Assembly (NCBI GenBank): GCA_022563755.1
Contig: JADFMT010000003.1
Span: forward strand, 1 to 40,654
Origin: Patescibacteria group bacterium
GTDB taxonomy: Bacteria; Patescibacteriota; Minisyncoccia; HO2-45-28
DNA length: 40,654 nucleotides
Direction: 5' to 3'
In this document: positions 1,114 to 20,427 of the stretch, piece after piece
How the letters are laid out: the number at the start of each line of letters is the position of its first letter
How positions within the stretch are numbered: the first letter of the stretch is position 1
Translations under genes and position numbers: made by a program
The notes under the pieces: model-generated
Seen by the model: the letters and a program-made list of their open reading frames with translations, nothing else
The model's database searches: none
What the model was told of the DNA's origin: nothing

Positions 1114-1122
1114 GAATCTTAT

Positions 1123-1159
1123 GTGCACGAGAACATTAGTTTTGATAAAATAAAAATAT
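1123..1159 (+). repeat. Ser-array junction repeat S1 (includes extended -10)
   Basis: GTGCACGAGAACATTAGTTTTGATAAAATAAAAATAT aligns without gaps to 1654-1690 and 2070-2106. Confidence 0.8.
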
Positions 1160-1649
1160 GAATAACAAAAATATAGTTATCTATTTACTCATATTACTTT
1201 TGGGAATTTCTGTATACTTAAATTTAAAAGACGACAATTCCCAAAGAAAATATATAGAACAAAATATTAAAGCAGAAGAAGCTTTTGGAAACCAAATTGG
1301 TGAGTTACCACTCTTCTCTTCTGCCTGTTTCCCAACTTACAAACAGGTTTGTACTTATGGTGAATGTGAAATAATTACAGACTTAGGAACATCTTTTAGT
1401 CTTTTGGATAATCTTAATACAGACCAGCGTACCATCTCTCGTTGTGATTCTAATGGCTGTGATACTTACGATGCTCAATATTATGCTTCTGGTTTATATG
1501 AAAATTATCAAGCAGAACAGCCGCGTGGATTTTTTCTCAAAAAAGAAAATAAATCCCTTGTTGATACAGAAACTACATCGTATACAGAAGTGGCCACTCA
1601 GGGAGTAACGACTTTTCTATATTCTGGGTATTGCAAGGATGTAAAATAA
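1158..1649 (+). CDS. Hypothetical membrane-anchored or secreted protein
   Basis: N-terminal hydrophobic helix (IVIYLLILLLGISVYL) followed by a domain with six Cys; AT-rich. Confidence 0.75.
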   Translation: MNNKNIVIYLLILLLGISVYLNLKDDNSQRKYIEQNIKAEEAFGNQIGELPLFSSACFPTYKQVCTYGECEIITDLGTSFSLLDNLNTDQRTISRCDSNGCDTYDAQYYASGLYENYQAEQPRGFFLKKENKSLVDTETTSYTEVATQGVTTFLYSGYCKDVK

Positions 1650-5395: not shown

Positions 5396-5403
5396 TATGA
5401 TTC

Positions 5404-6951
5404 ATGACTCCAAAAGCCAACCAAGAGAAAAACAAAAATTTGGTAACTCGACCACCAATTGTAGTGGTAATGGGCCATATTGATCATGGAAAAACCACGT
5501 TACTTGATTCGATTCGTAAAACCAATGTAGTTGAAAAGGAATCCGGAGGCATCACTCAGCATATTGGTGCCTATGAAGTGACCACGAGCACTAAGGAAGA
5601 GGAGACCCGTAAAATAACCTTTCTGGACACACCCGGCCATGCAGCATTTTCAAAAATGCGTTCTCGTGGTGCCCGGGTTGCGGACGTTGCGATCTTGGTA
5701 GTTGCAGCAGACGACGGGGTTAAACCTCAAACAAAAGAAGCACTGGATGCGATCAAGGAAGCGGATATCCCATTTGTTGTTGCGCTTAATAAAATCGACA
5801 AACCCGAAGCAGATCCCGAGAAAATCAAAAAAGAACTCTCGGAGGCAGATATTTTAATCGAGGAATGGGGCGGCAAGATACCGTTCGTTCCTCTCTCGGC
5901 AAAAACCGGGCAGGGGGTGGACGAACTTCTTGAGATGATTCTTTTGATAAGTGAGCTTGAGGATTTAAAAGCCGATCCTCGAGCACGGGCATCCGGCGTG
6001 ATTATTGAAGCCCACCGCGATCCAAAACGAGGCAACACCGCAACCCTGATCATTCAAAACGGAACGTTGCGGCAAGGCGAATTTATTGTAAGTAAAAATA
6101 CCTATGCACCCGTAAGAATTTTTGAGGATTTTTTGGGAGATAAAATCGGGGAAGCTACTTTCAGCCAGCCAGTACGCGTCGTGGGATTTTTACAGGTCCC
6201 AGAGATTGGCTCCATGTTTATAACGGTTGACTCTAAAAAGGCGGCTGAGACTGAAATAAAGGGGGCATCGGTGCCAGCCGAAATACCGCCGAAGACAAAG
6301 ACCATATCAGAGGACTCCAAAGAAAAACAAAAGTCCTTTGAAATTCCTATTGTGCTTAAAGCAGACGTTGCTGGATCTCTGGAGGCGCTCGAAGATGAGA
6401 TTAAAAGGCTTGGGGACGGGCGTTTTATGCTCACCATTTTACAAAGTGAGGTAGGCGCGGTAAGTGAAAATGATATGAAAATGGCCTCGGGTTCTCCAAA
6501 TGTTCTTGTTGTTGCATTCCGGGTGAAGATTGAAAAATCCGCCCAGGACATGGCTAAACGGTTTGGAATAACTCTTAAAACATTTGATGTTATTTACGAA
6601 GCTACCGACTGGCTAAAAGAAGAAATCGAGAAACGCCTACCAAAAGAGACTATTGAAAAAATCTTTGGACGCGCTAAACTATTAAGGATTTTTAAAAAAG
6701 AGGGTGAACGACAAGTAGTTGGCGGCAAGGTAAAGGAAGGTGCGATTCTCTTAGGGAAAAAATTTCGCGTTGTACGCAGGGGAAATATGCTAGGCGAGGG
6801 GCGAATTATTGAACTCCAACATCAAAAGGCAAAGACCTCAAGCGTTGAGGAAGGAAAAGAATTTGGCATTTTAACAACCTCTAAAATAACACTTGCCCCG
6901 GGAGACGAGATTGAAATTTTTGAGGAAGAAGAAGTTAAACCCAAGCTTTAA
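5404..6951 (+). CDS. infB: Translation initiation factor IF-2 (short form)
   Basis: [39 protein letters not shown]. Confidence 0.98.
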
Positions 6952-7286
6952 TGACAACGAAACGTCTTGAGAGAACCCGCTCACTTCTAAAACGTTTAGC
7001 TGCCCAGTTTATTGCCCGTAACGTCTCCCTTACAGGGGTCTTGACAACGGTCACAAGGGTTGAGATTGCATTAAGCTTCGATACGGCAACGATTTTTTTA
7101 AGCATTTGGCCGAGAGAAAAAGAGAAAGAAATGATGTCCCTACTTTACGCGGCACGAAAAGACTTCTGGGCATATCTTTCTCGTAACCTTAAAATGAAGC
7201 ATATGCCGTCGTTTCGCTTTGAGATTGACGAAGGCGAGAAAGCTAGAATTCGCATTGAAGAAATTTTACAAAAAGAAAAGAAATAA
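6951..7286 (+). CDS. rbfA: Ribosome-binding factor A
   Basis: Follows infB with a TAATG overlap; TVTRVE..ATIFLS and P..RFEID..RIEEIL pattern. Confidence 0.85.
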   Translation: MTTKRLERTRSLLKRLAAQFIARNVSLTGVLTTVTRVEIALSFDTATIFLSIWPREKEKEMMSLLYAARKDFWAYLSRNLKMKHMPSFRFEIDEGEKARIRIEEILQKEKK

Positions 7287-7287
7287 T

Positions 7288-7359
7288 GGTCTGGTAGCCA
7301 AGTGGCAAGGCAAGAGTCTGCAAAACTCTTATACGGGGGTTCGATTCCCCCCCAGACCT
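7288..7359 (+). tRNA. tRNA-Cys(GCA)
   Basis: GGTCTGG/CCAGACC acceptor, AGAGT-CT-GCA-AA-ACTCT, discriminator T. Confidence 0.95.
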
Positions 7360-7427
7360 CCCTAGAACAATCTGCAAAGCAGATTGTTCTGGCAATCAAT
7401 TCGCTTAGCGAATTGATTTAGCCAAAC

Positions 7428-7509
7428 GCCCGGGTGGCGGAATTGGTTTACGCAGCGGACTTAAAATCCGTAGCCGCAAGGCTTGTGGGTTCGAATCCCA
7501 CCCCGGGCA
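7428..7509 (+). tRNA. tRNA-Leu(TAA)
   Basis: GCCCGGG/CCCGGGC acceptor, GCGGA-CT-TAA-AA-TCCGT, long variable arm. Confidence 0.95.
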
Positions 7510-7519
7510 TATAACATAC

Positions 7520-7601
7520 GCCCCCGTGGTGAAATTGGCAGACACGCATGGTTTAGGACCATGTGCCGAAAGGCTTAGAGGTTCGAGTCCTCTCGGGGGC
7601 A
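7520..7601 (+). tRNA. tRNA-Leu(TAG)
   Basis: GCCCCCG/CGGGGGC acceptor, CATGG-TT-TAG-GA-CCATG. Confidence 0.95.
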
Positions 7602-7606
7602 CATAT

Positions 7607-7678
7607 GGGCGGCTAGCTCAATGGTAGAGCGCTCGGTTTACACCCGAGAGGTTTCAGGTTCAAATCCTGAGTCGCCCA
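7607..7678 (+). tRNA. tRNA-Val(TAC)
   Basis: GGGCGGC/GTCGCCC acceptor, CTCGG-TT-TAC-AC-CCGAG. Confidence 0.95.
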
Positions 7679-7727
7679 CAAAAAGGGATGATATTGATGG
7701 ACCGGGATATCATGGTATAATGAGTAT

Positions 7728-8000
7728 ATGAAATTCGAAAAACCGAAGGAGGGCCAGCATATCGGGGGCGGAACCCCTCTAAAAGAAGCTCTAAAGGAGA
7801 CTAGGCAAGTCGCGCAAGAACGAACAGCGTATGAAGAAGAAATGAGAGAAAAAATAGAGAAAGCAAAAAAAGAAGGGGATTCTAAACTCTATATAGAACT
7901 CAATGAGGAACTTAAGAGGAAAGAGAAAGAATTTATACAGCAGGAAACTAAGATTGCAAAACCCGTTGCCGGAAGCAGAGGGTACAAACTGCCTGAATAG
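7728..8000 (+). CDS. Hypothetical charged helical protein
   Basis: 90-aa E/K-rich ORF preceded by TGGTATAAT extended -10 only 6 nt upstream of the ATG. Confidence 0.75.
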   Translation: MKFEKPKEGQHIGGGTPLKEALKETRQVAQERTAYEEEMREKIEKAKKEGDSKLYIELNEELKRKEKEFIQQETKIAKPVAGSRGYKLPE

Positions 8001-8015
8001 TTAGTATATAAAATT

Positions 8016-8087
8016 GCCGCGGTAGCTCAGTGGTGGAGCGCTTGCTTGAAGAGCAAGGCGTCGGGGGTTCGATTCCCTCCCGCGGCA
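8016..8087 (+). tRNA. tRNA-Phe(GAA)
   Basis: GCCGCGG/CCGCGGC acceptor, CTTGC-TT-GAA-GA-GCAAG, T-loop TTCGATT. Confidence 0.95.
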
Positions 8088-8379
8088 CTCAAAACAAAAA
8101 GAATGGCATCGCGTCATTCTTTTTGTTTTGAGTTGATGATAGAAACAGGAATCGAACCCTACGAAAGGGGGTACCAGCCGCGAGGCTCTTTCGCAAAGCG
8201 AAAAGCCCCGTCTCCGGGGAAAACTGTAGTTTTCCCCGTGGCGGAAAACAGCGAGACTGAGCTTGTCGAAGCCGAGCGCTAGAAATCCTTCGACACTGAG
8301 CTCAGGACGAAGTGCCGAAGGATTTCTAGGGAGGACCATAAGCGACGACGGGTTCTAGGAGCGCAGCGACGGATTCCCT
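8088..8379 (+). repeat. tRNA-linked structured element, copy 1 (Phe-type)
   Basis: A/T hairpin, then GGAATCGAACCC, a ~100-bp core shared with 15164-15443 and 20074-20352, then GGGTTC..GATTCCCT. Confidence 0.9.
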
Positions 8380-8403
8380 ATATTGAAAAAACCATTGCTT
8401 TTA

Positions 8404-8432
8404 TTGACATCCGTTTAGAGTTTTGGTAGAAA
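8404..8432 (+). promoter_or_regulatory. sigma70-type promoter
   Basis: TTGACA-N17-TAGAAA with an upstream TG dinucleotide. Confidence 0.5.
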
Positions 8433-8503
8433 GACTATGGCGTACCTTTTAAAAACCAACAACCAAGAAGGCCTGACAATATCGAACCTTGAAAGGAGAT
8501 ATT

Positions 8504-8827
8504 ATGTCCAAAGTCAGCGAACAGCAGTTCTGTGAGATCCTTCAGCCCAAGCTCGGCGATTCGTGGGATCGCGCCCTGACCGTCTTCCGTAACTACGGCG
8601 AGATCTTGGCGTATGACGTAACCAACGTCCTACTCCATGCCGCCGACCAGGGAAAGGCGGATGAGGTGCTCGGCATTCTGGAGAAACACTATGAGAGCCA
8701 TCTCCAATTTCAGCACCCGGAGATCCGCGGCACTATCGAGGATCGCCTTCTCGGCGTCAATCCCACCCAGAATATGTTTCTTCGCATCTGCCAACAGACG
8801 TTGAGTCTCCAGCCGTCTCCGGCGTAG
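8504..8827 (+). CDS. Hypothetical protein (GC-richer than neighbours)
   Basis: AAAGGAG Shine-Dalgarno before the ATG at 8504; has its own promoter and terminator; codon style differs from flanking genes. Confidence 0.75.
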   Translation: MSKVSEQQFCEILQPKLGDSWDRALTVFRNYGEILAYDVTNVLLHAADQGKADEVLGILEKHYESHLQFQHPEIRGTIEDRLLGVNPTQNMFLRICQQTLSLQPSPA

Positions 8828-15163: not shown

Positions 15164-15443
15164 GGGAGAATCCGCTTCCCTGCCTGCCGGCAGACAGGGC
15201 TAGAACTCGTCGTCCCTCGACTTCGCTCGGGACTCCCTAGAAACCGAGGGGGTTTCTAGCGCTCGTCCGCCAGCTGGCGGACTCACTGTTTTCCGCCACG
15301 GGGAAAACTACAGTTTTCCCCGGAGACGGGGCTTTTCGCTTTACGAAAGAGCCTCGCGTCTGGCACCCCCTTTCGCGAGTTCGATTCTCTAACTCATCAA
15401 ATCAAAACAAAAAGAACGACATAAAGCCGTTCTTTTTGTTTTG
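15164..15443 (-). repeat. tRNA-linked structured element, copy 2 (Gly-type)
   Basis: Same hairpin and core as copy 1. Read on the minus strand it carries GAGAATCGAACTC, GAGTTC and GATTCTCCC, matching the tRNA-Gly T-arm. Confidence 0.9.
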
Positions 15444-15473
15444 TGCACTTTAGGGGAATAGGTTAGAACCTCT
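15443..15473. repeat. Gly-array junction J3
   Basis: GTGCACTTTAGGGGAATAGGTTAGAACCTCT, 28/31 identical to J2. Confidence 0.85.
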
Positions 15474-15619
15474 CTTAAGGCATTAACTGATTATTCTACA
15501 TTTGAAATGGTAACATTTTTAGTAGCGTTATTCCCATAGCACCTCGACCCGATATTAAATTGACACTCTCTACCACTTTTTGCATTATAAACTAAGTATA
15601 TAATTTAACTAATAATGCT

Positions 15620-16606: not shown

Positions 16607-16638
16607 GCCTACTTCTAAATTTAGAAGTAGGCTCTTTT
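16607..16638 (+). terminator. Intrinsic terminator (perfect 26-bp palindrome)
   Basis: GCCTACTTCTAAATTTAGAAGTAGGC followed by TCTTTT. Confidence 0.7.
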
Positions 16639-16639
16639 A

Positions 16640-16670
16640 GTACACTTTAGGGGAACAGGTTAAAACCTCT
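16640..16670. repeat. Gly-array junction J2
   Basis: GTACACTTTAGGGGAACAGGTTAAAACCTCT. Confidence 0.85.
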
Positions 16671-16744
16671 TTTAGAAGCAGAGTTTAAGCCCCCCCCGTT
16701 TTTTCATACTGCTTATAGTACATCCGTAAAAAATTGGCGTGTTT

Positions 16745-18203: not shown

Positions 18204-18333
18204 CGCAAAAGTTGTGATTTAAGAACGGTCTAAGCGCTACTCAAGCGCCAAAACTTGTATTCTGTGCGGAGCCCCTCACTTCGTTTCGGGACGCTACATT
18301 TTTCAGCCAATCGCTTCGCTCTTGGGAAAAATG

Positions 18334-18404
18334 TGCGGGTAGGGAGAATCGAACTCCCGTCATCTGATTGGCAACCAGATGTTTTGCCACTAAACTATAC
18401 CCGC
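18334..18404 (-). tRNA. tRNA-Gly(GCC)
   Basis: GCGGGTA/TACCCGC acceptor, TCTGG-TT-GCC-AA-TCAGA, T-arm GGGAG-TTCGATT-CTCCC. Confidence 0.95.
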
Positions 18405-20073: not shown

Positions 20074-20352
20074 GTGGGCGTTGGAGGACTCCGTCGCTTC
20101 CTGCCGGCAGGCAGGCGCTTCTAGAACCCGTCGTCCCTCGATTTTACTCGGGACTCCCTAGAAACCCCTCGGTTTCTAGCGCTCGCTTCGCTCGCTGTTT
20201 TCCGCCACGGGGAAAACTACAGTTTTCCCCGAAGACGGGGCTTTTCGCTTTGCGAAAGAGCCTCGCGTCTGGCACCCCCTTTCGTGGGTTCGAGTCCCAA
20301 CAAACACAATACACAAAATAACAAACACCATTAAAAAGATGTTTATTATTTT
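20074..20352 (-). repeat. tRNA-linked structured element, copy 3 (Val-type) with 18-bp tRNA 3' duplication
   Basis: Core shared with copies 1 and 2; GTGGGCGTTGGAGGACTC occurs at 20074-20091 and 20353-20370. Confidence 0.92.
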
Positions 20353-20353
20353 G

Positions 20354-20427
20354 TGGGCGTTGGAGGACTCGAACCTCCGGCCTTCTCGATGTCACCGAGA
20401 CGCTCTAACCGGCTGAGCTAAACGCCC
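20354..20427 (-). tRNA. tRNA-Val(GAC)
   Basis: GGGCGTT/AACGCCC acceptor, TCTCG-GT-GAC-AT-CGAGA, T-arm GGAGG-TTCGAGT-CCTCC. Confidence 0.95.

What the first reader, a model, noticed from the sequence alone, without database searches (positions are those of the whole stretch)
8088..8379. A ~280-bp highly structured repeat family tied to tRNA 3' ends (three copies)
Copies at 8088-8379 (+), 15164-15443 (-) and 20074-20352 (-) share one layout in the tRNA sense. It runs: long A/T hairpin, antisense T-arm, near-identical core CGAAAGGGGGTRCCAGMCGCGAGGCTCTTTCGYAAAGCGAAAAGCCCCGTCTYCGGGGAAAACTGTAGTTTTCCCCGTGGCGGAAAACAGYGAG, variable-loop stems (GAG..CGAG, CTAGAAA..TTTCTAG), GACGACG, then a sense T-arm split by a hairpin. 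The antisense arm can pair with both halves of the split arm, closing one multibranch fold. There is no conserved ORF. I do not recognise this as a described RNA family. It could be a non-autonomous mobile element or a structured ncRNA co-transcribed with tRNAs.
Basis: partly seen in the sequence, partly recalled or inferred. Interest (0 to 1): 0.85.

Follow-up and report, generated by a model that had tools for sequence, protein, structure and literature searches.

The report
Gene-end-copying structured insertion element
The three repeats are copies of a small, gene-less, tightly folded insertion element of ultra-small (Patescibacteria) bacteria that lands at the ends of tRNA and other essential genes, copies the gene's end so the gene stays whole, and seems to move without any enzyme of its own.

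Summary
The window has three copies, with cores 96% alike. This 781-kb genome has 10, and 50 of 151 sampled genomes of the class have at least one (up to 23). No Rfam family matches.

The conserved part is a core of about 125 nt with covarying stems and invariant joining strands. Its closing helix is made of an antisense copy and a sense copy of the neighbouring gene's end.

The element is not tRNA-specific. 37 of 96 copies follow a tRNA. Others sit at the 5' or 3' ends of EF-G, DnaX, Mfd, L33, NDK and other genes, always just outside an intact gene end.

Sister genomes show clean empty and filled sites. The insert is a spacer, an antisense arm and the core, plus a duplication of the target that runs to the gene's end (8 to at least 99 nt).

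No reverse transcriptase, IS110, TnpB or Y1 transposase was found. The only recombinase present in every genome checked is a single Xer-type enzyme.

G·U far outnumbers A·C in the stems, and DNA mini-hairpin motifs are enriched on one strand. Both point to a single-stranded form in the tRNA-sense direction.

The E. coli tyrT (RtT) repeats share the layout but not the core.

Earlier runs of this scan met the same family in other genomes. I found no paper describing it. The insertion chemistry is unknown.

The parts
8016..8088 (+). tRNA-Phe(gaa), host gene of copy 1; its T-arm-to-3'-end part is Y1
   Evidence: ARAGORN, Rfam tRNA 68.1 bits
8089..8145 (+). Copy 1 spacer: A/T-rich hairpin (8090-8130) plus linker. 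The same hairpin sequence recurs in copy 2 (86%)
   Evidence: D4, I3
8146..8159 (+). Copy 1 antisense arm Y' (CAGGAATCGAACCC), the 5' strand of closing helix P1
   Evidence: read; P1 pairs counted
8151..8358 (+). Copy 1 core as matched by covariance model R1 (87.9 bits): J1 CGAAAGGGGGT 8162-8172, nested hairpin insert 8173-8214, P2 8215-8238, J2/3 8239-8251, P3 8252-8279, extended P4 8280-8329, GGAG/P5/GACGAC 8330-8349, arm head GGGTTC 8350-8355
8359..8370 (+). 12-nt mini-hairpin module GAGCGCAGCGAC that splits the sense arm
   Evidence: 23 genome-wide against 1.3 in shuffles
8372..8379 (+). Copy 1 Y2: only GATTCCCT still matches the tRNA-Phe tail
15164..15443 (-). Copy 2 (orphan): hairpin 15402-15443, core 15200-15385 (96.5 bits), split arm and tail remnant down to 15164. 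No adjacent tRNA. The arms match the tRNA-Gly(gcc) T-arm
18333..18404 (-). tRNA-Gly(gcc): likely original host of copy 2, now 2.9 kb and two genes away on the same strand
   Evidence: GAGTTCGATTCTCCC, 15 of 15; the link is an inference
20353..20427 (-). tRNA-Val(gac), host gene of copy 3
20295..20352 (-). Copy 3 spacer hairpin, scored terminator-like (18 pairs), plus the outer part of the antisense arm
20121..20294 (-). Copy 3 core (R1, 121.5 bits), including the nested hairpin insert
20074..20091 (-). Copy 3 Y2 tail GAGTCCTCCAACGCCCAC, an exact 18-nt repeat of the tRNA-Val 3' part

Best explanation
This is a family of small (core about 125 nt), gene-less, strongly structured insertion elements of Patescibacteria.

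The layout of each copy is: [intact host gene ending in Y1] - spacer (often a terminator-like hairpin) - Y' (antisense of the first 9-17 nt of Y) - core (J1 GAAAGGGGGU, P2, J2/3 UGNAGGAAAACAG, P3, P4, GGAG, P5, CGAC) - Y2 (a second copy of the gene end). Y' and the head of Y2 form the helix that closes the core.

Shown here:
- It is a real insertion. Sister genomes carry X-Y-Z where others carry X-Y-[spacer-Y'-core]-Y-Z.
- The duplicated stretch starts where the arm pairs and runs to the end of the gene, so the gene survives.
- The stems covary, and they are selected on the tRNA-sense strand.
- None of the mobility enzyme families searched for tracks the element.

Inferred:
- The active form is a single strand in the sense orientation. 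It could be ssDNA, favoured by the one-strand excess of GCGNAGC DNA mini-hairpins, or an RNA read through from the host gene.
- Its Y' arm base-pairs with the target, which puts the element's 3' end (..CGAC) at the 5' edge of Y.
- Joining there, followed by host repair or replication synthesis from the freed upstream end, re-creates Y as far as the gene end. That would give a duplication with a fixed left edge and a variable right edge.
- Short conserved sequences such as the T-loop allow hops between tRNAs, after which the arms are re-templated on the new host.
- Once the element sits in a conserved gene end, it also spreads between lineages by ordinary homologous recombination.
For: Family and structure:
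- 10 matches in G000. 50 of 151 sampled genomes of the class have a match, with up to 23 in one genome. Ten genomes labelled as other classes of the phylum also have matches.
- On 96 distinct copies, 93.1% of cells are paired against 76.8% in shuffles. 22 of 23 pairs change on both sides. The covariation score is 0.492 against 0.198, reached by 0 of 500 shuffles, and slid controls score 0.05-0.17.
- G·U 135 against A·C 29 overall (P2 15:4, P4 50:6).

Insertion:
- At the EF-G 5' locus in genus g4, G006, G005 and G007 are empty. G003 and G008 are filled with a 19-nt spacer, Y' and the core, plus a 70-nt duplicate of Y. The two Y copies are identical in G003.
- The L33 locus is empty in G006, filled in G003 and G007, and holds three tandem units in G008.

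Gene-end duplication:
- 43 of 96 copies have a direct repeat of at least 16 nt starting at the 3' boundary, against 0-2 of 96 in five flank-swapped controls. Lengths were 8 to 99 nt in the looser search.

Hosts:
- 37 of 96 copies have a same-strand tRNA ending 5-67 nt upstream.
- Pfam names the other hosts: EF-G, DnaX and Mfd 5' ends (element in the opposite orientation), and EF-G, NDK, PolX, glycosyltransferase and glycosyl hydrolase 3' ends (same orientation).

Arms follow the host:
- Nearly identical cores in G000 (96%) carry arms specific for Phe, Val, Met, Tyr, Gln and Lys.
- At tRNA-Lys(ttt) the Y' arm pairs with Y2 (GATTCC), not with the resident Y1 (GAGTCC).

No enzyme of its own:
- G000 has 0 IS110, 0 RT, 0 TnpB and 0 Y1 transposase matches, and one tyrosine recombinase, which is Xer-type.
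- Five high-copy genomes, including the complete G003, have 0 of 5 with an RT, exactly one tyrosine recombinase each, and 1 of 5 with serine recombinases.

Single-strand hint:
- GCGNAGC occurs 55 times in 43 of 96 copies on the sense strand, against 2 on the antisense strand and 6.1 ± 2.6 in shuffles.
- The passages I read in PMC13037366 say this DNA mini-hairpin is very stable, nuclease-resistant and a poor SSB substrate, that related GCGNNAGC forms mark ssDNA priming sites, and that the RNA form is much weaker.

Mosaic Y1 and Y2 in G008 show spread by recombination.
Against: - No intermediate was observed: no circle, no free single strand and no RNA. The only public runs found were small-share DNA contigs.
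- The joining chemistry has no candidate enzyme. 'None found' rests on six Pfam models and on MAGs, apart from the complete G003.
- Invariant joining strands across the phylum look more like a functional RNA or a protein-binding site than like a passive DNA repeat. The model does not say what they do.
- In the G097 genus the arms are arranged differently (Y' lies upstream of Y1), and many copies there show no long repeat.
- 53 of 96 copies lack a repeat of at least 16 nt by my criterion.
- Re-templating of the arms after a hop is inferred, not seen.
- The covariation and G·U counts come from an alignment fitted to the model and from related sequences. They overstate independence.
Confidence: 0.55

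Rival explanations
1. It is a host-serving non-coding RNA of the RtT type. It would be made as the tail of tRNA and other transcripts and cut out by tRNA-processing enzymes at the copied tRNA tail. Copies would arise by local duplication and be kept because the RNA is useful.
For: - The E. coli tyrT/tyrV spacer and the three 178-bp RtT units have the same layout: a 22-nt antisense T-arm (86% complementary), the sense T-arm 5' half, a structured insert ending in GAGCGAAGCGACG, and the tRNA-Tyr tail. rttR is annotated there as a small RNA.
- Stem selection is strand-specific in the tRNA-sense direction.
- No promoter of its own was found.
- Core joining strands are invariant.
- The core and P1 are kept in copy 1, where the Y2 tail no longer matches.
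Against: - Presence is patchy: 50 of 151 genomes of the class.
- Sister genomes differ by clean presence or absence at the same site.
- Copies lie at the 5' ends of EF-G, DnaX and Mfd in the opposite orientation, where they cannot be a transcript tail of the host gene.
- One copy lies inside a long ORF.
- Numbers vary from 1 to 23 per genome.
Confidence: 0.15
2. It is an att-bearing mini-element, of the CIME or IMEX type. It would carry a copy of the gene end as its attachment site and be inserted and excised by a recombinase supplied in trans, either the host's single Xer-type enzyme or a phage or island integrase not in these assemblies.
For: - Direct repeats of the gene end flank the insert, as attL and attR do.
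- Hosts are tRNA and tmRNA genes.
- Tandem arrays occur, as with repeated integration.
- In G008 the two Y copies differ only by synonymous changes. This fits one of them having arrived with the element.
Against: - Each of six element-rich genomes has exactly one tyrosine recombinase, and in G000 it is Xer-type. Serine recombinases are present in 1 of 5.
- Targets share no sequence motif (T-arms, EF-G, DnaX, L33 and others). A site-specific recombinase would not accept them all.
- Repeat length varies from 8 to 99 nt.
- This model does not explain the antisense arm or the conserved folded core.
Confidence: 0.12
3. It is a SINE-like retroelement. A sense RNA would be copied into DNA at a nicked target by target-primed reverse transcription.
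For: - Target duplications are long and variable in length.
- 5'-truncated solo 3' ends lie next to full copies in G097.
- Some Y2 tails carry CCA where the gene copy does not: the Gln copies and the G006 Glu copy.
Against: - RVT_1 was found in 0 of 6 element-rich genomes, one of them complete.
- There is no poly(A) or other priming tail.
- The CCA cases amount to two independent events.
Confidence: 0.05

Closest known systems
E. coli tyrT-operon 178-bp repeats / RtT RNA (rttR; Rfam RF00391 as recalled and as named in an earlier scan note)
   Same: - It follows tRNA genes.
- Each unit carries an antisense copy of the host T-arm (22 nt, 86% complementary).
- The sense T-arm is split by a structured insert rich in GCGNAGC and GCGNNAGC motifs that ends in GAGCGAAGCGACG.
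- A direct copy of the tRNA tail follows.
- Units are in tandem.
   Different: - There is no detectable sequence or structure homology of the core. R1 scores at best 6.3 bits on the locus, and no RtT match appeared on copy 1 at E <= 10.
- In E. coli the structured part sits inside the T-loop split, and the position of the Patescibacteria core is a 5-nt loop.
- I looked at one locus and one host tRNA only.
- In the passages I read, no mobility is described and the mode of action is called unknown.
tRNA/tmRNA-targeting integrative elements and their integrase-less att-flanked derivatives (CIMEs); recalled
   Same: It inserts within the 3' part of tRNA or tmRNA genes, and the gene end is duplicated so that the gene stays intact.
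   Different: There is no integrase and no cargo. The size is 100-300 nt. Targets are many and unrelated, and include the 5' ends of protein genes. The duplication length varies. It has an antisense arm and a conserved folded core.
Rickettsia palindromic elements (RPEs); recalled, also named in an earlier scan note
   Same: These are small structured repeats with no transposase of their own, found in a reduced genome, and they can lie inside genes without breaking the frame. I saw one such case here.
   Different: RPEs are not described as copying gene ends or as having target-matched arms. Sequence relatedness was not tested here.
Guide-by-pairing mobile elements: IS200/IS605 (ssDNA, short guide next to a hairpin), group II introns (EBS/IBS), IS110 bridge RNA; recalled
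   Same: The target appears to be chosen by base pairing with a segment of the element, and a single-stranded folded form seems to matter.
   Different: The cognate proteins are not found: Y1 transposase 0, RT 0, IS110 0. No Rfam intron or guide-RNA family matched. None of these classes makes gene-end-length duplications.
Folded-ssDNA recombination sites (integron attC, CTX phage attP with XerCD); recalled
   Same: Structure is conserved on one strand more than sequence. In the folded strand, the closing helix reproduces the target duplex. The only recombinase available is Xer-type.
   Different: Those sites are bound by a sequence-specific recombinase at one fixed site (attI or dif). Here the targets are diverse.

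Membership tests
Any Rfam 15 family | Covariance-model match at the gathering score, or a suggestive match below it | tested here: not met
   Whole window: tRNAs only. Copy 1 at E <= 10: only the tRNA plus chance miRNA-type hits.
RtT RNA / tyrT repeats | Unit downstream of a tRNA that ends in a copy of that tRNA's 3' end | tested here: met
   this family; E. coli.
RtT RNA / tyrT repeats | Homologous sequence and structure of the unit | tested here: not met
   R1 on the E. coli locus scores at best 6.3 bits, E 0.25. No RtT hit on copy 1 at E <= 10.
MITE (non-autonomous DNA transposon) | Terminal inverted repeats that belong to the element, and a short target duplication of fixed length | tested here: not met
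   The only inverted ends are the arms, and these differ with every host. Duplications range from 8 to 99 nt.
MITE (non-autonomous DNA transposon) | A cognate transposase in the same or related genomes | tested here: not met
   IS110, TnpB and Y1 transposase models give 0 in G000. DDE families were not searched.
tRNA-targeting integrative element / CIME | Direct repeats of the gene end (attL/attR) flanking the insert | tested here: met
tRNA-targeting integrative element / CIME | A dedicated tyrosine or serine integrase available in the genome | tested here: not met
   One tyrosine recombinase per genome in 6 of 6 genomes, Xer-type in G000. Resolvase is present in 1 of 5.
Group I / group II intron | Same orientation as the interrupted gene, plus a ribozyme core recognisable by Rfam | tested here: not met
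   The element is in the opposite orientation at the EF-G, DnaX and Mfd 5' ends. No intron family matched. The host gene is intact upstream of the element.
SINE-like retroelement (TPRT) | A reverse transcriptase available | tested here: not met
   RVT_1 gives 0 of 6 genomes.
SINE-like retroelement (TPRT) | Variable target duplications and 5'-truncated copies | tested here: met
IS200/IS605-derived PATE | Y1 HUH transposase, and insertion without target duplication | tested here: not met
   PF01797 gives 0 in G000. Duplications are present.
Self-cleaving or self-splicing ribozyme (new class) | Catalysis at the CGAC|Y junction | not testable with these tools
   Only conserved joining strands and covarying stems can be shown.

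The most novel reading that the evidence does not exclude
The element is a self-targeting, protein-less mobile nucleic acid. A folded single strand would find its target by pairing its 5' arm with a conserved gene end, and insert using only its own fold (catalysis by the conserved core) and/or housekeeping replication and repair enzymes, rebuilding the gene end as it goes. On this reading the long-unexplained E. coli tyrT/RtT repeats are a relic of the same kind of element, so the kind is not confined to Patescibacteria.
Probability: 0.25. Interest if true: 0.92.

Novelty: categorically new. Interest (0 to 1): 0.82.

Why it matters
If the reading holds, this mobile element lies outside the known classes. 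It has no transposase, integrase or reverse transcriptase. Its target is chosen by a base-pairing arm. Its insertion mode leaves essential genes intact by copying their ends. And it thrives in some of the smallest bacterial genomes known.

It would also help with practical annotation. It explains many 'duplicated tRNA ends' and 'att scars without integrase' in Patescibacteria genomes, and it warns annotators about pseudo gene starts and ends.

It gives a testable origin for the E. coli tyrT repeats.

It offers a compact, apparently programmable insertion module that could be tested experimentally.

Tried and rejected
- **Shared neighbour gene.** The ORFs beside the three window copies have no common family and no similarity to each other.
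- **Autonomous version with a gene.** G097's repeat clusters lie next to SNF2, DUF4391, RhuM/Fic and Dus genes, with no recombinase there. The 1,079-nt repeat in G027 is a copy inside a long ORF, not a transposase unit.
- **Viral carriers.** One pattern scan of viral contigs gave 2 hits, and 0 of 2 were confirmed by the model.
- **Expression and variants in public reads.** Only four small-share DNA contig runs were found and no RNA holder was listed.
- **Empty site at a tRNA host.** The flanks of the tRNA-Glu locus are not syntenic in genus g4, so I could not tell whether the terminator-like spacer is native or arrives with the element.
- **Fold-back origin of spacer plus Y'.** In the Gln and Tyr copies, spacer plus Y' reads as a degenerate inverted copy of the whole tail. 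In the young EF-G insertion of G003 it does not, and the same spacer recurs in G008. I therefore dropped fold-back synthesis as the general rule.
- **Promoters.** None precedes the cores, and counts equal the shuffles.
- **Closing-helix test.** The end-helix length test was weak (median 8 against 7 bp) because swapped controls share T-arm sequences.
- **Literature.** Searches found no description of the family. The preprint 10.64898/2026.10.21.760802 (passages read) does not mention Patescibacteria. The latest version of PMC10542128 has no RtT passage. Supplementary Fig. 8 and Text S2 of 10.1101/2024.07.17.603846 bear on tyrT-region coverage and were not seen.

Full report
**1. The observation.**
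The window holds nine tRNA genes.

Copy 1 shares 94-98-nt stretches, 96% complementary, with copies 2 and 3. A profile built from the three scores E 1e-77 to 1e-93 on each.

Folded as RNA, copy 3 reaches -103.1 kcal/mol (z -4.69, 0 of 200 shuffles as good). With DNA parameters the z-score is -4.47.

Rfam 15 gives only tRNAs in the window and nothing credible on copy 1 at E <= 10.

**2. Anatomy.**
The window is contig C8 of a 781-kb, 47-contig genome.

Printing every copy in the tRNA-sense direction showed one plan:
- the host gene, whose last part I call Y1;
- a spacer, often an A/T-rich terminator-like hairpin;
- Y', an antisense copy of the first 9-17 nt of Y;
- a conserved core;
- Y2, a second, direct copy of Y.

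In this genome's tRNA copies, Y2 is interrupted after GGTTC by TAG plus a 12-nt mini-hairpin (GAGCGnAGCGAC).

An alignment of 24 cores (A1) and RNAalifold gave stems P1 (Y' with Y2), P2 and P4, and variable hairpins P3 and P5.

Over 96 distinct copies the consensus keeps these positions nearly invariant: GGGGtCGGG..CCCGtggaGGAA..gAAACCG..GGTtTc..ggaG..gcGAc. Median length is 125 nt, range 98-208.

Five G000 copies, including all three in the window, also carry a nested 42-nt hairpin between J1 and P2 (8173-8214 in copy 1). A related solo hairpin stands at C24:26107-26183.

**3. Is the structure selected, and on which strand?**
On alignment A2 (99 matches, 96 distinct), 93.1% of cells form standard pairs, against 76.8% in shuffles. 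22 of 23 pairs show changes on both sides. The covariation score is 0.492 against 0.198. None of 500 shuffles reaches any observed measure, and slid partners score 0.05-0.17.

The alignment was fitted to the model and the sequences are kin, so these figures are generous. Even so, P2 and P4 show clear swaps such as AU/GC 47:45 and CG/UA 48:42.

G·U pairs outnumber A·C mismatches 135 to 29 (P2 15:4, P4 50:6, P1 70:19). So the fold is selected on the sense strand, as for an RNA or for one particular DNA strand.

The motif GCGNAGC occurs 55 times in 43 of 96 copies on that strand. It occurs twice on the other strand, and 6.1 ± 2.6 times in shuffles.

According to the passages I read in PMC13037366, this is an extraordinarily stable, nuclease-resistant DNA mini-hairpin that binds SSB poorly. 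The related GCGNNAGC forms mark priming sites on single-stranded phage DNA, and the RNA form is much weaker.

**4. Distribution.**
Covariance model R1 finds 10 copies in G000. It finds matches in 50 of 151 sampled genomes of the class, G000 included. Counts per genome include 23 in G097, 12 in G125, 10 in G027, and 8 each in G003 and G136.

In a phylum-wide sample, 13 of 151 genomes match. Ten of these are labelled as belonging to other classes.

A motif scan of viral contigs gave two hits. The model confirmed neither.

**5. Hosts.**
Of 96 distinct copies, 37 have a same-strand tRNA ending 5-67 nt upstream. None shows the opposite arrangement.

Others follow what I read as tmRNA 3' ends (ARAGORN did not call them on the fetched stretches).

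Many lie at the ends of protein genes. Pfam names the following:
- the EF-G 5' end (G003);
- DnaX 5' ends (G083, G051);
- an Mfd 5' end;
- an EF-G 3' end with a 99-nt repeat;
- the 3' ends of NDK, PolX, glycosyltransferase and glycosyl hydrolase genes.

An L33-like 3' end is my own reading of the translation.

The orientation rule has no exception in this set. The element is co-directional at 3' ends and opposite at 5' ends. It therefore always lies just outside an intact gene end, with Y1 upstream of the core.

A direct repeat of at least 16 nt starting at the core's 3' boundary is present in 43 of 96 copies, against 0-2 of 96 in five controls with swapped upstream flanks.

The G097 genus carries a variant arranged around REP-like hairpins. 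It has short repeats and 5'-truncated solo 3' ends.

**6. It is an insertion.**
In genus g4 the EF-G 5' locus is empty in G006, G005 and G007, and filled in G003 and G008.

Base by base, the empty site reads X-Y-Z. The filled site reads X-Y-[19-nt spacer + Y' + core]-Y-Z. Y is 70 nt long and runs from about codon 20 of the gene to 8 nt upstream of its start codon.

In G003 the two Y copies are identical. In G008 they differ, and only by synonymous changes over the 20 codons.

They are also mosaics. The right part of Y1, together with the spacer, is G003-like. The right part of Y2 resembles the native sequence of sister genome G005. So the element has also moved between lineages by homologous recombination within the conserved gene.

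The L33 locus is empty in G006, filled in G003 and G007, and holds three tandem 336-nt units in G008.

**7. The arms follow the host.**
G000 copies whose cores are 96% alike carry arms specific for Phe, Val, Met and Lys. Other subfamilies carry arms for Tyr, Gln and Lys. That is too many differences in 14-17 nt for point mutation at that core divergence, so the arms must be re-templated on each host. This is an inference.

In the Val copy the arm head (GGGTTC) is the donor type, while the part that pairs with the tail is Val-specific.

At tRNA-Lys(ttt), Y' pairs with Y2 (GATTCC) and not with the resident Y1 (GAGTCC). So P1, not a Y1-Y' hairpin, is the conserved pairing.

**8. No enzyme of its own.**
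- In G000: IS110 0, RVT_1 0, TnpB 0, Y1 transposase 0, resolvase 0.
- G000 has one tyrosine recombinase. It scores as XerD, XerC and XerA, and exceeds the curated cut-off only for the XerA model.
- In five high-copy genomes, one of them a complete single contig: RVT_1 in 0 of 5, exactly one tyrosine recombinase each, and resolvase in 1 of 5.
- The genes next to the window copies share nothing.
- DDE transposase families were not searched.

**9. Mechanism.**
I commit to a guide-arm, single-strand insertion model.

The sense strand of the element pairs through Y' with the target's Y. This places the element's 3' end (..CGAC) against the 5' edge of Y, exactly as in P1. The element is joined there. 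The freed upstream 3' end is then extended on the intact complementary strand and re-creates Y. Only events in which this new copy reaches the gene's end leave a live gene. That would give the fixed left edge and the variable right edge of the duplication.

Three things are shown: the insertion, the geometry, and the strand asymmetry. Three are inferred: the pairing step, the joining chemistry and the repair synthesis.

Whether the strand is ssDNA or RNA is open. I favour ssDNA slightly, because of the mini-hairpin excess and the absence of any reverse transcriptase.

Correction of near-palindromes by template switching is a known replication process (recalled). It could re-template Y' against Y1 after a hop.

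**10. Comparison with what is known.**
An earlier scan note pointed to the E. coli tyrT repeats, and I tested that lead. The tyrT-tyrV spacer and the three 178-bp units each contain:
- a 22-nt antisense T-arm, 86% complementary to tRNA-Tyr;
- the sense 5' half of the T-arm;
- a structured insert with GCGNNAGC and GCGNAGC motifs that ends in GAGCGAAGCGACG;
- the tRNA-Tyr tail.

The layout is shared and so is the terminal motif. But R1 scores only 6.3 bits there, and the structured part occupies the T-loop split instead of the core position. So it works alike but is not a member.

The one paper passage I found on RtT calls its mode of action still unknown (10.1101/2024.07.17.603846, passages). 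The older tyrT literature is recalled, not read here.

MITEs, CIMEs, IS200/IS605 derivatives, introns and SINEs each fail at least one defining feature that I tested (see the membership table).

**11. Novelty and earlier notes.**
Four literature searches and Rfam gave no description of this family.

Earlier runs of this scan met the same kind of element in at least eight other Patescibacteria genomes and also called it undescribed. Those are unchecked AI notes and I do not count them as support.

- protein-gene hosts and the orientation rule;
- base-level empty and filled alleles;
- the strand asymmetry and the mini-hairpin excess;
- the enzyme census in six genomes;
- the direct test of the RtT comparison.

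**12. Verdict.**
The element is real, widespread and mobile, and its targeting arms copy the host gene's end. Its insertion chemistry and the role of the invariant core remain unknown.

Noticed in passing
window 8173-8214, 15321-15362 (approx.) and 20231-20272 (approx.); also G000 C24:26107-26183: A 42-nt hairpin (GCCAGACGCGAGGCTCTTTCGCAAAGCGAAAAGCCCCGTCTC type) is nested between J1 and P2 in five G000 copies. A related solo copy stands elsewhere in the genome. It looks like a second, smaller insertion module, and on the antisense strand it scores as terminator-like.
   Followed up: partly
G000 genome-wide, e.g. window 8359-8370; C23:4075; C30:4778; C30:1269; C17:6820; C10:1251; C14:3493: The 12-nt module GAGC[GA]N(1-2)AGCGA[CG] occurs 23 times, against 1.3 in shuffled genomes. 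Several copies sit in the loops of hairpins just after tRNA or tmRNA genes that carry no full element.
   Followed up: partly
window 15439-15477 and 16636-16674: A 39-nt direct repeat (87%) lies immediately upstream of copy 2's hairpin and again between the GH130-like and GSDH-like genes. Together with tRNA-Gly(gcc) at 18333-18404, whose T-arm matches copy 2's arms, this suggests that a 2.9-kb two-gene segment sits between a tRNA and 'its' element.
   Followed up: partly
window 1120-1167, 1651-1698, 2067-2114: Three copies of a 48-nt A/T-rich repeat (75-83%), spaced 531 and 416 nt apart. Not examined.
   Followed up: no
L040 (G027:C8) 1347-1587 within ORF 3-1925: A 241-nt copy of the element region, 99% identical to a second copy 1,079 nt away, lies on the opposite strand inside a 640-aa ORF with an NPPY motif. 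It does not break the reading frame.
   Followed up: partly
G000 C47:11047-11400, C31 (two copies); L033 (G006): Some Y2 tails read discriminator + CCA where the functional tRNA gene upstream lacks CCA. These are the Gln copies (one origin) and one Glu copy. This hints that a mature tRNA or a different allele was the template.
   Followed up: no
L117 (G097:C15:44000-56000) about 5400-8700: Dense clusters of several small repeat families (REP-like GTCCTCCC..GGGAGGAC hairpins and 241-, 101-, 69- and 53-nt repeats) are interleaved with element copies, between SNF2/DUF4391 and RhuM/Fic genes.
   Followed up: partly
L161 (E. coli NC_000913.3:1286500-1287800): The tyrT-tyrV spacer and the RtT repeats contain antisense T-arm copies and GCGNAGC/GCGNNAGC mini-hairpin motifs. 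I did not find this described in the passages I read.
   Followed up: partly
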